Of a stretch of 64,000 bases of DNA, positions 8,701 to 11,700 are shown one piece after another. Source of the DNA: Escherichia coli (GTDB taxonomy: Bacteria; Pseudomonadota; Gammaproteobacteria; Enterobacterales; Enterobacteriaceae). The position numbers were made by a program. Where the stretch lies: NCBI RefSeq assembly GCF_048403405.1, contig NZ_CP183129.1; one strand, 5' to 3'. How positions within the stretch are numbered: position 1 is the first letter of the stretch; every line of letters starts with the position of its first letter.

Positions 8701-11700
8701 CAGCATCTGGTGCGCGATTTCCAGTCGCTGCATTTTCTCAACACCTGCCAGTTGCAGGCCGAACGCCACGTTGTCCCGTACATTGCGCCACGGTAGCAGC
8801 CCTTCATTCTGAAAAACTACGCCACGCTCTGCTCCCGGCCCCTCAATGCGTTTGCCCGCCAGTTGAATACTGCCGTGCTGATAAGGCACAAAACCGGCAA
8901 TCAGATTCAGCAGGGTGGTTTTACCGCAGCCGGACGGCCCCAGCACCACCAGTAGCTCACCGCTTTCCAGCGTCAGGTTGATATCTTCCAGTGCCGGTTT
9001 GCCGCCATAATCGGCGTAAAGATGAGAGATTTGCAGCATCTGCGCCTCCTTTTATTGCACGAAGCGCGAGGTCACGTACTGGCTGTAATCGTTCGCTACA
9101 GCCGGGACTTTGCCCTGCTCTTTCAAAAACTGCGCGGTGTCGATGATCGCTTTGTTCACCGATCCGGTCAGTTCTGCCGTTTGCTGCTGCGGCGTCAGAT
9201 AGGTATTCCCCTTCACCAGCCCCGGAACGTCACCTTCAGGCACGCCGCTTAACCGCGCCAGTTTGCTGATGTTTTCAGGCTGTTTCAGCCACGCGTCTGG
9301 GTTAGCAATGTACGGTTGCTGAGCATCGATGGCGCTTTTAGCGAACGCTTTCACGACCTCAGGATGTTTCTCGGCAAAATCTTTGCGCACTACCCAGACA
9401 TCCAGCGTCGGCGCGCCCCACTGCCCGACCTGTTCAGAATCGGTCAGCACCTTGCCGTCTTTTTCCAGGGCGTTAACCGCCGGTGCCCAGACATAAGCAC
9501 CATCAATGTCTCCCCGTTGCCATGCGGCGATAATCGCGGGTGGCTGCAGGTTCACTATCTCCACTTGTCCGGGTTTTATACCCCAGTGTTTCAGCGCCGC
9601 CAGCAGGCTGTAGTGGGTGGTGGAGATAAACGGTACGGCGATGCGTTTGCCAATGAGATCTTCCGGTTTGCTGATAGTTTTCTTTACCACCAGCGCTTCG
9701 GAGTTACCCAGTTTTGACGCCAGTAAGAAGACTTCAATCGGCACCTGTTGGCTGGCTGCCACCGCTAATGGGCTGGAACCGAGGTTACCGATTTGGACAT
9801 CGCCTGAAGCCAGCGCCCGCACGATGCTGGCTCCGCTGTCAAACTTACGCCAGTCCACCGTCGCCCCGCTCTCTTTAGCAAAGGTGTTATCAGCCTGAGC
9901 CACTTTCGCCGGTTCAGCGGAGGTTTGATAGGCCACGGTGACGTTCACCGCCTGTGCCTGAAAAGCGATGAATGCCAGTGCGGCAAGAAGTGTGTTACGC
10001 GATGAAATTGCCATGATTGTCTGCTCCCCTGTCTTGTTATAGGAGCAGTATTCAGGAATAAAAACATTCATTAAAAGAATTAGTCGTTATCGCACAGATG
10101 ATTTTATTCTTAGCAAAAAAGCGGCAAAGGAAAGATTAAATATGCAATTACACCCACTCTGACAATTCAGTAAGTTACTGCACTTCATTTTTATTAATGC
10201 ATAAACAAGCAGAACATAATGTCTTTTATTTTATTAACAGCAATACATATAATGAAATCATTATATTCACATTGCATATATAACTGTATCATTCTCAATC
10301 AACCACATAATACATTCACATAATGTATATAATCCATATTTGTGCCTAGAACATATTTTTAATATGTAATTAATTGACAAACTAAATCACATCTAAATAC
10401 AATATATAAAACAAAATAACTATACAAACCAAACACACAAACACTTAACATATGAACTACATAAAAGATTACGCAGTCGTATCCCCGTACCTGAAAGCCC
10501 CTTATTTTTCAGCTATCAGTAATTTTTAACACTTAAAAATTAGCATCTGTCTGTGCCAGAGATTACGTCTCTGCGGGCATCGTTGTGCTTGTAGTATAAT
10601 AAATAAAATGGAGTGTCATTAAGTGGATAAGGTTTTAGATTCAGCCATCCTTTCTTCGGCAAATAAAAGAAAGGGTATCCTTGCTATTGGCGCACATCCT
10701 GACGATATAGAATTGGGCTGTGGCGCGTCGCTTGCTCGTCTTGCGCAAAAAGGAATTTATATCGCAGCCGTGGTGATGACTACCGGCAACTCTGGCACAG
10801 ATGGAATAATCGATCGCCATGAAGAATCGCGCAACGCCCTAAAGATATTAGGGTGCCACCAAACTATTCATCTTAATTTTGCTGACACCCGCGCGCATTT
10901 GCAGCTCAATGATATGATTTCCGCCCTGGAAGACATCATTAAAAATCAAATTCCTTCTGATGTTGAAATCATGCGGGTATATACCATGCATGATGCCGAC
11001 CGCCATCAGGATCATCTTGCTGTTTATCAAGCTTCAATGGTTGCCTGCCGAACTATTCCACAAATTCTCGGCTACGAAACCCCAAGCACCTGGCTTTCAT
11101 TTATGCCTCAGGTTTTTGAATCCGTTAAAGAAGAATATTTCACAGTCAAACTTGCTGCATTAAAAAAACATAAAAGCCAGGAACGACGCGATTATATGCG
11201 TCATGATCGCCTGCGTGCAGTTGCACAATTTCGCGGGCAACAGGTCAATAGCGATCTGGGTGAAGGCTTTGTAATTCATAAAATGATTCTTTGAGCAAAT
11301 TGCATGAAAACCTGGATATTTATCTGTATGTCCATAGCAATGTTGCTATGGTTTTTAAGTACGCTAAAACGTAAACCCAGTCAAAAGAAAGGCTGTATTG
11401 ACGCCATTATACCTGCTTATAACGAAGGCCCGTGTCTGGCACAGTCACTGGATAATCTGCTGCGTAATCCTTATTTTTGCCGGGTAATTTGCGTAAACGA
11501 CGGCTCCACGGACAATACCGAAGCGGTCATGGCGGAAGTCAAACGCAAATGGGGCGACCGCTTTGTTGCCGTCACGCAAAAAAATACCGGTAAAGGTGGT
11601 GCGCTGATGAATGGCCTCAATTACGCCACCTGCGACCAGGTTTTTTTAAGTGATGCCGACACCTATGTTCCGCCCGATCAAGACGGAATGGGCTATATGC

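What the first reader, a model, noticed from the sequence alone, without database searches (positions are those of the whole stretch)
10072..10622. 550-bp strongly AT-rich divergent regulatory region between tauA and yaiS with repeated ACATAAT motifs
This is the longest non-coding stretch in the window and is markedly AT-rich compared with its neighbours. It contains direct repeats of cacataat (10304-10311 and 10316-10323) and a related aacataatg (10213-10221). It must hold the sulfate-starvation tauA promoter and the yaiS promoter; its composition suggests nucleoid-protein (H-NS-type) binding.
Basis: seen in the sequence. Interest (0 to 1): 0.25.

Follow-up and report, generated by a model that had tools for sequence, protein, structure and literature searches.

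The report
Known H-NS-bound AT-rich tauA–yaiS spacer

Summary
The window is E. coli and is 100% identical to strain 2012C-4221 over the stretch compared. The tauA–yaiS intergenic region is real. It is 608 bp (10015-10622), not 550, because tauA starts at 10014. It is the longest intergenic gap in the window and the most AT-rich stretch: 30% GC overall, 23% in the core, 52% for the window.

The K-12 counterpart of the core (window 10169-10468) is a published "promoter island", PI 383994_309. It is reported as H-NS-bound in all ChIP studies compared, and as bound by sigma70 and sigmaS RNA polymerase in genomic SELEX.

The spacer has three parts:
- **tauA promoter module (10015-10152):** conserved. 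It includes a 24-bp block that is kept even in O157-type genomes, which lack the rest of the spacer.
- **Core (10153-10590):** drifts at about the neutral rate but keeps its composition.
- **yaiS-proximal element (10591-10622):** nearly invariant.

The ACATAAT repeats are not enriched beyond what the local composition gives, and two of the three copies are not conserved. I found no RNA family, no conserved small ORF and no exceptional curvature.

Verdict: the H-NS and divergent-promoter reading is supported through the K-12 literature, and the repeat motif is not. Already known; low interest.

The parts
10015..10622 (.). Whole tauA-yaiS intergenic spacer (608 bp, 30% GC)
   Evidence: RefSeq annotation of the identical record gives tauA at 9052-10014 (-) and the PIG-L CDS from 10623 (+). 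Composition. It is the longest intergenic gap in the window.
10015..10152 (-). tauA regulatory module: leader with SD (GGAG = 10024-10027 on the - strand), candidate -10 TATAAC (10036-10041, - strand) and upstream activator region
   Evidence: Only 7.9% of columns vary among 8 alleles, against 24.8% in the core (Fisher P=7e-6). Window vs K-12 shows 4 differences in 139 bp, against 13% at tauABC 4-fold sites (P=3e-4). The promoter elements are read from the sequence; the transcription start was not verified.
10106..10129 (-). Conserved 24-bp block CCTTTGCCGCTTTTTTGCTAAGAA (tauA strand), -115 to -92 from the tauA ATG; probable Cbl/CysB activator site
   Evidence: 20 of 24 bases are identical, at the same offset, in the O157:H7 allele, whose spacer is otherwise unrelated beyond 10052. 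The local alignment scored 28, against a maximum of 24 in 300 shuffles. Calling it a Cbl site is an inference from my memory of van der Ploeg 1997, which is not held.
10169..10468 (.). AT-rich core (23.3% GC), orthologous to published K-12 promoter island PI 383994_309; predicted H-NS nucleation and spreading platform
   Evidence: Coordinates mapped through alignment A2 and NC_000913.3; the PI coordinates are in U00096.2. H-NS binding in K-12 comes from PMC3661553 Table 1. TpA steps reach 45 per 300 bp, the window maximum, against 4.4 per 100 bp window-wide. A/T-only runs of 8 bp or more are 24.7 per kb, against 3.3. Loose sigma70-like sites reach 10 per 300 bp, against a mean of 1.5.
10374..10403 (+). 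Near-consensus sigma70 promoter-like element TTGACA-18-TACAAT pointing at yaiS, about 220 bp upstream of its start
   Evidence: It matches 11 of 12 positions, the best match in 5000-16000. It lies in the most conserved stretch of the core: a 25-bp invariant run at 10368-10392, and only 1 variable column in 36 (permutation P=0.028). The same element is listed for K-12 yaiS in the RpoD SELEX table. Activity in vivo was not shown.
10557..10573 (.). Perfect 6-bp inverted repeat CAGAGA-N5-TCTCTG, centred about 42 bp upstream of the start predicted from the proximal TATAAT
   Evidence: Read from the sequence. It is kept in all 8 alleles; the B2-type alleles carry A>G, which keeps a G-T/G-U pair. Its function is unknown; a transcription-factor site or an RNA hairpin are both speculation.
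10591..10622 (+). yaiS-proximal invariant element: TATAAT (10595-10600), SD GGAG (10610-10613), then the GTG start at 10623
   Evidence: Only 1 of 32 columns varies among 8 alleles, and there are 0 differences from K-12. The RpoS-holoenzyme SELEX peak at U00096.2 position 383868 maps to about 10595.
10214..10220 (+).
   Evidence: Not conserved in the K-12 haplogroup, which has ATTACGAGA here.
10305..10311 (+). ACATAAT copy 2
   Evidence: The K-12 haplogroup has GCATATT here.
10318..10324 (+). ACATAAT copy 3, the only conserved copy, inside the invariant run ATTCACATAATGTATATAA (10314-10332)
10623..11294 (+). yaiS-type PIG-L deacetylase gene, first gene of the yaiS-yaiP-acetyltransferase-yaiO cassette that the spacer controls
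   Evidence: Intact 223-aa ORF. The cassette (10624-13834) is 77.7% identical to Citrobacter sp. FP75 from the start codon to the end of yaiO. Among the 80 best loci kept, the only other close relative is 48% identical, in Stenotrophomonas.

Best explanation
The 608-bp spacer is a composite divergent control region, and its centre is a composition-defined H-NS silencing platform (a 'promoter island').

1. The tauA-proximal 140 bp or so carry the activator-dependent sulfate-starvation promoter of tauABCD (Cbl/CysB). This part is held by purifying selection and does not depend on the rest of the spacer.
2. The 23-30% GC core (about 10153-10590) is rich in TpA steps and A/T-only runs. It binds H-NS, which oligomerises along it. 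It also carries many -10/-35-like hexamers that can capture RNA polymerase, including one near-consensus promoter at 10374-10403. The net effect is that the horizontally acquired yaiS-yaiP-acetyltransferase-yaiO cassette, and spurious transcription from the core, are kept low.
3. An invariant yaiS-proximal element (a TATAAT without a -35, an SD, and a palindrome centred near -42) provides the regulated entry point for yaiS.

Shown here: the anatomy, the composition, the conservation pattern and the orthology to the K-12 island.
Shown by others, for K-12: H-NS occupancy and RNA polymerase binding.
Inferred: that this 15%-diverged allele behaves the same way, that H-NS represses yaiS, and which hexamers actually fire.
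For: - **Orthology.** The core maps onto PI 383994_309. That island is H-NS-bound in all datasets compared. The spacer carries an HNS mark and RpoD SELEX promoters for both genes, and an RpoS SELEX peak that maps to 10595.
- **Composition.** It has the lowest GC, the highest TpA density and 7.5 times the window's density of A/T-only runs. Promoter-like sites are about 7 times the window mean.
- **Composition kept while sequence drifts.** 24.8% of core columns vary among 8 alleles, yet GC stays at 29-31% and TpA at about 12 per 100 bp. Between this allele and K-12, AT-to-GC changes (30) balance GC-to-AT changes (28).
- **Neutral rate.** Core divergence from K-12 (73/436) does not differ from tauABC 4-fold sites (61/469, P=0.13).
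- **Conserved ends.** Both ends are significantly more conserved than the core.
- **The core goes with yaiS, not tauA.** The 1,063 of 5,426 complete genomes without a match to the spacer include O157:H7, where a different island sits next to tauA and only the tauA-proximal block is retained.
- **The cassette looks foreign.** Close yaiS relatives are very patchy, and the Citrobacter cassette also has an AT-rich (31% GC) upstream spacer, though one that cannot be aligned to this one.
Against: - No H-NS or RNA polymerase occupancy data exist for this allele. The K-12 evidence was read from a secondary table, because the primary supplements are not held.
- The Lang-type high-affinity H-NS motif (recalled from memory) is not enriched: one match with 2 or fewer mismatches.
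- Predicted static curvature is average (mean 12.8 degrees against 14.1 window-wide).
- The promoter-like density equals the composition expectation (13 observed against 17.6 in Markov shuffles). 'Promoter island' may therefore mean nothing more than 'very AT-rich'.
- Neutral-rate divergence is equally compatible with a spacer that has no selected function.
- The effect of H-NS on tauA or yaiS expression has not been reported in anything I could read.
Confidence: 0.8

Rival explanations
1. Neutral junction DNA. The core is unconstrained spacer left at the boundary between the tau operon and an acquired cassette. Its AT-richness is simply the GC-to-AT mutational equilibrium of unselected E. coli DNA, and H-NS and RNA polymerase binding are passive by-products with no regulatory consequence.
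For: - Core divergence equals 4-fold-site divergence of the adjacent tau genes.
- AT-to-GC and GC-to-AT changes are balanced at about 30% GC.
- Promoter-like and repeat content equal the composition expectation.
- O157-type genomes manage tauA without this core.
- IS1 insertions and deletions in the spacer are tolerated in natural isolates.
Against: - Several blocks inside the core are invariant across deep haplogroups, notably the TTGACA-18-TACAAT element (permutation P=0.028).
- A 608-bp gap is unusually long for E. coli and persists in 4,363 of 5,426 genomes.
- This reading is not exclusive of the main explanation. H-NS silencing needs composition only, so neutral sequence drift is what the main explanation also predicts.
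Confidence: 0.25
2. The ACATAAT / CACATAAT repeats are iterated binding sites for a sequence-specific regulator that co-ordinates the two divergent promoters.
For: Three copies lie within 111 bp on one strand. For that word alone P=0.004 against local composition. One copy lies in a 19-bp invariant run.
Against: - The word was chosen post hoc; the overall count of repeated 7- and 8-mers is as expected (P about 0.24).
- Two of the three copies are mutated in the K-12 haplogroup, which most genomes carry.
- Start-to-start spacings of 91 and 13 bp are irregular.
- The word contains CATAAT, a one-mismatch -10 hexamer, which is expected to recur in 23% GC DNA.
Confidence: 0.04
3. The spacer hides a gene product: a small RNA, a small protein, or a long structured 5' leader of yaiS transcribed from the distal promoter at 10374-10403.
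For: - A conserved near-consensus promoter 220 bp upstream of yaiS would make a leader of about 210 nt.
- The hairpin at 10557-10573 is kept, with a wobble-compatible change, and RNAalifold reports 2 pairs changed on both sides.
- A 30-codon ORF (10359-10451, - strand) is open in both haplogroups.
Against: - No Rfam match at E<=1.
- The RNA fold z-score is only -1.8.
- The two covarying pairs each reflect a single split between two haplogroups.
- Five of the six small ORFs are broken in other alleles. The surviving one has no SD, and every difference I noted between the two translations changes an amino acid, including loss of the stop codon.
- NC_000913.3 annotates nothing in the gap.
Confidence: 0.07

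Closest known systems
Promoter island PI 383994_309 yaiS(-)/tauA(+) of E. coli K-12 MG1655 (Shavkunov et al. 2009; Panyukov & Ozoline 2013, PMC3661553)
   Same: Same locus, same flanking genes, same position in the gap (maps to window 10169-10468) and same composition. It is associated with genes predicted as foreign and with H-NS.
   Different: This is a different allele: about 15% nucleotide divergence plus a 9-bp indel in the core, and more A/T-only runs (15 against 11). The PlatProm criterion could not be re-run on this allele.
H-NS-silenced AT-rich control regions of horizontally acquired genes (xenogeneic silencing; e.g. the bgl and proU regulatory regions and the appY promoter island)
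   Same: A long stretch of 70% AT or more, rich in TpA, upstream of a patchily distributed cassette. IS1 insertions recur in the AT-rich stretch, as they do at bgl (the bgl parallel is from memory).
   Different: No derepression phenotype or antagonist (LeuO, SlyA, RcsB-BglJ type) is known for yaiS. There is no enrichment of the high-affinity H-NS motif and no marked curvature.
tauABCD sulfate-starvation promoter activated by Cbl and CysB (van der Ploeg et al. 1997, J Bacteriol 179:7671; Bykowski et al. 2002)
   Same: Same operon. The tauA-proximal 138 bp are nearly identical to K-12 (4 differences), so the published promoter and activator sites should apply.
   Different: As I recall, the far-upstream CysB sites reach about -220. 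If so, they would fall in the variable core of this allele (10150-10260, 73-85% identity to K-12). I could not verify this because the paper is not held. This allele has TATAAC where the 7 other alleles do not (six have CATAAC) at the candidate -10 (position 10041).
ssuE-elfA spacer of K-12 (PI 996773_328), the other Cbl-dependent operon next to a promoter island
   Same: A divergent gap of 355 bp at 27% GC between a sulfonate-sulfur operon and an H-NS-type target (a fimbrial operon); it is listed as a PI bound by H-NS.
   Different: No significant sequence similarity to the tauA upstream region (local alignment P=0.53; the best match to the 24-bp block is 14/24).

Membership tests
Promoter island (Ozoline group definition) | PlatProm predicts at least 8 transcription start points in every 100-bp sliding window over at least 300 bp (definition in PMC3661553) | not testable with these tools
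   PlatProm is not available. As a proxy, loose sigma70-like sites reach 10 per 300 bp against a window mean of 1.5, the second highest in the window. This equals the composition expectation.
Promoter island (Ozoline group definition) | Orthology to one of the 78 catalogued K-12 islands | tested here: met
   PI 383994_309 (U00096.2) maps to window 10169-10468 through NC_000913.3 and alignment A2. The 776-bp shift between genome versions is from memory but is consistent with the gene labels.
Promoter island (Ozoline group definition) | Bound by RNA polymerase but with low productive transcription | not testable with these tools
   For K-12 only: RpoD and RpoS holoenzyme genomic SELEX peaks in this spacer. 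There are no data for this allele.
Promoter island (Ozoline group definition) | Association with horizontally acquired genes | tested here: met
   Among the 80 best loci kept from a scan of one genome per species (100,044 species), the only close relatives of the yaiS cassette are in Citrobacter sp. FP75 (81% aa) and then Stenotrophomonas (48%). The cassette is absent from about 20% of E. coli genomes, and in O157:H7 a different island takes its place.
H-NS target / xenogeneic silencing region | Extended AT-rich tract (about 70% AT or more over 200 bp or more) with frequent TpA steps and A/T-only runs | tested here: met
   GC is 23% over 300 bp. TpA is about 15 per 100 bp in the densest 300 bp, against 4.4 window-wide. 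There are 15 A/T-only runs of 8 bp or more (24.7 per kb against 3.3).
H-NS target / xenogeneic silencing region | High-affinity nucleation motif (tCGATAAATT type, Lang et al. 2007; recalled from memory) | tested here: not met
   One match with 2 or fewer mismatches in 608 bp (1.6 per kb, against 1.25 per kb window-wide).
H-NS target / xenogeneic silencing region | Intrinsic DNA curvature | tested here: inconclusive
   The wedge model gives a mean of 12.8 degrees against 14.1 window-wide, with a maximum of 31.6 at 10123 (between the window's 95th percentile, 28.0, and 99th, 35.6). The parameters were recalled from memory, so only relative values count.
H-NS target / xenogeneic silencing region | In vivo H-NS occupancy and derepression in hns mutants | not testable with these tools
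   Occupancy is reported for the K-12 orthologue in all studies compared. Derepression of yaiS or tauA was not found in the literature I could search.
Cbl/CysB-dependent sulfate-starvation promoter (tauAp) | Conserved activator-binding DNA upstream of a weak -35 promoter of tauA | tested here: met
   10015-10152 is under purifying selection (P=3e-4 against 4-fold sites). A 24-bp block at -115 to -92 from the ATG is retained at the same offset in the otherwise unrelated O157 spacer.
Cbl/CysB-dependent sulfate-starvation promoter (tauAp) | Demonstrated Cbl and CysB footprints and a mapped transcription start | not testable with these tools
   The primary paper (PMC179728) is not held, so positions quoted from it rest on memory only. 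The comparison with the ssuE promoter found nothing significant.
Known structured RNA (Rfam families) | Covariance-model match | tested here: not met
   No match at E<=1 in 9800-10900 on either strand.
Iterated operator / repeat array | Repeats in excess of the composition expectation and conserved among alleles | tested here: not met
   Repeated k-mer counts have P about 0.24. Two of the three ACATAAT copies are lost in the K-12 haplogroup.

The most novel reading that the evidence does not exclude
The spacer could be a clean natural example of a silencer selected for composition only: 25% of its columns vary while GC, TpA and A/T-run content stay fixed. Inside it would sit a two-step switch for the uncharacterised yaiS-yaiP-acetyltransferase-yaiO cassette (a putative sugar-modification cluster): a buried near-consensus sigma70 promoter (10374-10403), conserved across deep haplogroups, and a -35-less proximal promoter gated by an unknown activator that binds the invariant CAGAGA-N5-TCTCTG palindrome near -42. 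Allelic differences in the core (this allele has more A/T-only runs, and a T instead of C at the candidate tauA -10) might then tune silencing strength, or tauA basal expression, between E. coli lineages.
Probability: 0.12. Interest if true: 0.3.

Novelty: already known. Interest (0 to 1): 0.1.

Why it matters
It matters little beyond correct annotation. It confirms that a reader working from sequence alone can spot an H-NS-type silenced control region from composition. It also shows that short repeats in 23% GC DNA should not be over-read.

The modest added value is an allele-level picture. The tauA activator module is a separable, conserved unit. The AT-rich core travels with the yaiS cassette and evolves at about the neutral rate while keeping its composition, which is what composition-based xenogeneic silencing predicts. 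It also flags candidate control elements for the uncharacterised yaiS-yaiO cassette.

Tried and rejected
- **Repeats as a signal:** rejected. Repeated k-mer statistics are at the composition expectation, and the copies are not conserved.
- **Excess of promoter-like sites beyond composition:** rejected. 13 observed against 17.6 expected.
- **Intrinsic curvature:** not exceptional.
- **Lang H-NS motif:** not enriched.
- **Rfam families:** none.
- **Structured RNA leader:** weak. The fold z-score is -1.8, and the two compensatory pairs come from a single haplogroup split.
- **Small ORFs:** five of six are broken in other alleles. The one that stays open lacks an SD, and every difference noted changes an amino acid.
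- **Mobile-element or phage origin of the core:** no phage match. The five 'plasmid' matches are records of 1.2-4.9 Mb, which I take to be mislabelled E. coli chromosomes.
- **Homology of the spacer to the spacer upstream of the Citrobacter yaiS cassette:** none. Homology starts at the start codon.
- **Shared Cbl motif with the ssuE promoter:** nothing significant.
- **Literature that could not be read:** van der Ploeg 1997 and the Kahramanoglou 2011 supplements. The Fuqua & Wagner 2024 supplements do not mention this island.
- **Hypermutability of the core:** considered and not supported. Divergence matches tauABC 4-fold sites (P=0.13), although it exceeds the yaiS/yaiP 4-fold sites (P=2e-6). 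I read that difference as a mosaic recombination history.
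Full report
**What is there**

The window is Escherichia coli. A 901-bp query (9900-10800) is 100% identical to strain 2012C-4221, NZ_CP027437.1. I used that record's RefSeq annotation as the gene map for the window.

tauD-tauC-tauB-tauA lie on the minus strand. tauA is annotated at 9052-10014. The annotated start at 10014 has a GGAG ribosome-binding site, begins the signal peptide MAISSRNTLL..., and is the start used in K-12.

On the plus strand, a PIG-L deacetylase gene (yaiS type) starts with GTG at 10623. It is followed by yaiP, an acetyltransferase gene and yaiO.

The true gap is therefore 10015-10622, 608 bp. It is the longest annotated intergenic gap in the window; the next is ehaB-hemB at 525 bp.

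**Composition**

- GC is 30.1% over the gap. The lowest 300-bp value in the whole window is 23%, at 10171. The window as a whole is 52%.
- The gap has the window's highest TpA density: 45 per 300 bp, against 4.4 per 100 bp window-wide.
- A/T-only runs of 8 bp or more are 24.7 per kb, against 3.3 per kb window-wide.

**The repeats**

- ACATAAT occurs at 10214, 10305 and 10318.
- For that single word, three copies are nominally rare in first-order Markov simulations of the gap (P=0.004). But the word was picked after looking.
- The number of 7-mers present 3 times or more (4, against 2.4 expected) and of 8-mers present twice or more (14, against 10.6) is unremarkable (P about 0.24).
- In the K-12 haplogroup, which most genomes carry, the first two copies read ATTACGAGA and GCATATT. 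Only the third copy is conserved.
- ACATAAT contains CATAAT, a one-mismatch -10 hexamer. Such words are expected to recur in 23% GC DNA.
- I conclude that the repeats are not a feature.

**What is already known about this locus**

The K-12 orthologue of the gap (615 bp; yaiS 384059-384616 on the minus strand, tauA from 385232 in NC_000913.3) contains one of the 78 'promoter islands' of Panyukov and Ozoline.

- It is listed as '383994_309 yaiS(-)/tauA(+)', with coordinates in U00096.2.
- It is scored as associated with foreign genes by three predictors, and as H-NS-bound 'according to all studies' (Grainger; Kahramanoglou; Oshima).
- Promoter islands are defined as 300 bp or more in which PlatProm predicts at least 8 start points in every 100-bp window. 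They are reported to bind RNA polymerase, to give little productive transcription, and to be covered by H-NS.
- Through alignment A2, the island maps to window 10169-10468, which is 23.3% GC. The mapping uses the 776-bp offset between U00096.2 and U00096.3.
- Genomic SELEX with sigma70 holoenzyme lists this spacer with an HNS mark. It gives TTGACA-18-TACAAT for yaiS and TTGAGA-16-TACAAT for tauA.
- SELEX with sigmaS holoenzyme gives a peak at 383868, which maps to about window 10595.
- The tauABCD promoter itself is a classical Cbl/CysB-dependent sulfate-starvation promoter (van der Ploeg et al. 1997). That paper is not held, so any positions from it are from memory.

**Anatomy from comparison of alleles**

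Population survey:
- 4,363 of 5,426 complete E. coli genomes carry the spacer.
- Relative to this window there are three allele classes: 99% identity or more (449 records), about 93-95% (the B2/UTI89 type), and about 85% (the K-12 type, 3,256 records).

Divergence is sharply localised. Against K-12, 100-bp bins are 90-99% identical in the tau genes and 95-100% in yaiS/yaiP, but only 73-86% between 10100 and 10600.

In an 8-allele alignment (A2), the fraction of variable columns is:

| Segment | Variable columns |
|---|---|
| 10015-10152 (tauA side) | 7.9% |
| 10153-10590 (core) | 24.8% |
| 10591-10622 (yaiS side) | 3.1% |

The ends differ from the core with Fisher P=7e-6 and P=0.004.

Divergence at four-fold degenerate sites between this strain and K-12:

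| Gene | 4-fold site divergence |
|---|---|
| tauA | 13.6% |
| tauB | 11.7% |
| tauC | 13.5% |
| yaiS | 3.5% |
| yaiP | 6.0% |

- The core (73 substitutions in 436 aligned sites, 16.7%) does not differ from the tau 4-fold sites (P=0.13). It is therefore drifting at about the neutral rate of the tau-side haplotype.
- The tauA-proximal 138 bp (4 differences) are significantly more conserved than neutral (P=3e-4).
- Despite the drift, every allele keeps 29-31% GC and about 12 TpA per 100 bp. AT-to-GC changes (30) balance GC-to-AT changes (28).
- This allele has more A/T-only runs than K-12 (15 against 11). It should therefore be at least as good an H-NS substrate.

**The tauA module is separable from the core**

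- In O157:H7, tauA is followed by a different island: a response regulator, a MASE1 histidine kinase, a UhpC-like receptor and an ABC transporter.
- Homology to this window stops at 10052, 38 bp upstream of the tauA ATG.
- Beyond that point a 24-bp block is retained with 20 of 24 identities at exactly the same offset. It is window 10106-10129, reading CCTTTGCCGCTTTTTTGCTAAGAA on the tauA strand, at -115 to -92 from the ATG.
- The alignment scored 28, against a maximum of 24 in 300 shuffles.
- This is most simply the activator (Cbl/CysB) site. That identification is an inference.
- The AT-rich core is absent from the O157-type spacer, which is 44% GC. The core therefore goes with the yaiS cassette rather than with tauA.

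**The yaiS side**

- Inside the core, the longest invariant run (25 bp, 10368-10392) belongs to a near-consensus sigma70 element, TTGACA-18-TACAAT (10374-10403, plus strand, 11 of 12 matches).
- A 36-column window around it has a single variable column (permutation P=0.028).
- It is the element listed for yaiS in the K-12 SELEX table.
- Next to yaiS, the last 32 bp are nearly invariant. They hold a perfect TATAAT (10595-10600) with no -35, then GGAG (10610-10613) and the GTG start.
- A perfect CAGAGA-N5-TCTCTG palindrome (10557-10573) is centred about 42 bp upstream of the start that this -10 implies. It is kept in all alleles; the B2-type alleles carry a wobble-compatible A>G.
- These are candidate control elements. 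None is demonstrated.

**Origin of the cassette**

- A scan of one genome per species found close YaiS relatives only in Citrobacter sp. FP75 (81% aa), followed by Stenotrophomonas (48%). The rest are distant PIG-L proteins.
- In Citrobacter the whole yaiS-yaiO cassette is 77.7% identical at the DNA level, from the start codon to the end of yaiO. It sits in a different neighbourhood, after a 464-aa ORF that I judged by eye to resemble a cytochrome c peroxidase; I ran no family search on it.
- Its upstream 410-bp spacer is also AT-rich (31% GC) but cannot be aligned to this one.
- So AT-richness, not sequence, is what recurs upstream of this cassette.

**Negative results**

- No Rfam match at E<=1.
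- The putative leader folds only slightly better than shuffles (z=-1.8), and the two 'compensatory' pairs reflect a single haplogroup split.
- Five of the six small ORFs are broken in other alleles. The one that stays open has no SD, and every difference I noted between its translations changes an amino acid.
- Predicted curvature is average (the parameters are from memory).
- The Lang-type H-NS motif is not enriched.
- Promoter-like hexamer pairs are about 7 times denser than the window mean, but not denser than the local composition predicts (13 against 17.6).
- There is no phage match, and the only 'plasmid' matches look like mislabelled chromosomes.
- No similarity to the ssuE promoter was found.

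**Mechanism I commit to (confidence about 0.8)**

The spacer is a composite divergent control region.

- *tauA end.* This is an autonomous, activator-dependent promoter module.
- *Centre.* This is a composition-defined platform on which H-NS nucleates and spreads. RNA polymerase can also be trapped there on many -10/-35-like sites. Together these keep the acquired yaiS-yaiO cassette, and spurious transcription, low.
- *yaiS end.* This provides the regulated promoter.

Shown here: the anatomy, the composition, the orthology and the selection pattern.
Shown by others, for K-12: H-NS and RNA polymerase binding.
Inferred: the same behaviour for this allele, repression of yaiS by H-NS, and which promoters fire.

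The main rival is that the core is simply neutral junction DNA at mutational equilibrium, with H-NS binding as a by-product. It cannot be excluded from sequence, and it is largely compatible with the main reading, because composition-based silencing predicts neutral sequence drift.

**Verdict**

The repeat motif is chance. Novelty: already known. Interest: low (0.1).

Noticed in passing
window 10623-11294 (+): yaiS is an intact 223-codon ORF here. K-12 yaiS is cut to 185 aa by a premature stop (KHKS*ERRD against KHKSQERRD). RefSeq nevertheless marks the gene as an incomplete pseudogene (10623-10985) in the identical record and in several other strains. A full-length 223-aa homologue (81% identical) exists in Citrobacter sp. 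FP75.
   Followed up: partly
window ~10211-10226; loci L011 (1810-2610), L009 (4310 onward), L010: IS1 insertions recur in the AT-rich spacer. Strain 167 has IS1 with a 9-bp target duplication, CATTATTTC. Strain ES3 has IS1A at the same point plus a deletion of yaiS-yaiP. Strain 1506 has IS1-mediated loss of the tauA 5' end and yaiS. In all, 167 records give a split match to the spacer, which is not shown to be independent events.
   Followed up: partly
L002 (O157:H7 EC4115) 5116-10153; window 10052 breakpoint: 1,063 of 5,426 complete E. coli genomes have no match to the spacer. In O157:H7 a different island replaces it next to tauA: a response regulator, a MASE1 histidine kinase, a UhpC-like receptor and an ABC transporter. 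The junction lies only 38 bp upstream of the tauA ATG, inside the tauA promoter region.
   Followed up: partly
window 10041 (- strand, first base of the candidate tauA -10): This allele reads TATAAC where six of the seven other alleles aligned read CATAAC. This may be a change toward consensus in the tauA -10 hexamer. The -10 assignment itself is unverified.
   Followed up: no
window 7448-10014 versus 10623-12500: Mosaic history relative to K-12. The tau genes differ at 12-14% of four-fold sites, but yaiS/yaiP at only 3.5-6%. A recombination boundary therefore lies at or near the yaiS end of the spacer.
   Followed up: partly
window 48200-48850 (5' part of yahL, the yahL-yahK gap, and the 3' end of yahK): This is a second long AT-rich block (GC 33% or less over 551 bp, 48303-48853). 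It has the highest density of promoter-like hexamer pairs in the window (14 per 300 bp) and is probably another H-NS-type region.
   Followed up: no
window 5061-5585 (ehaB-hemB gap): This is the second longest intergenic gap (525 bp). It is also AT-rich (a 442-bp block with GC 33% or less at 5080-5521), upstream of the autotransporter adhesin gene ehaB.
   Followed up: no
window 11160-11279 (-): A 39-codon ORF antisense to the 3' end of yaiS corresponds to the K-12 small protein YkiC and is annotated as a hypothetical protein here.
   Followed up: no
window 11304-12500 (+): yaiP is flagged 'frameshifted' (pseudogene, 11304-12499) in the identical RefSeq record. The window nevertheless shows an uninterrupted 398-codon ORF with only 2 amino-acid differences from K-12 YaiP.
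   Followed up: partly
literature table (PMC3661553 Table 1); L096: Three of the 78 K-12 promoter islands lie next to genes of the sulfur-starvation regulon: yaiS/tauA, ssuE/elfA and cysB/ymiA. This may be coincidence, and I did not test it statistically.
   Followed up: no
window 10520-10542: A perfect 10-bp A/T-only inverted repeat, TAATTTTTAA-N3-TTAAAAATTA. It is only partly conserved in the K-12 haplogroup.
   Followed up: no
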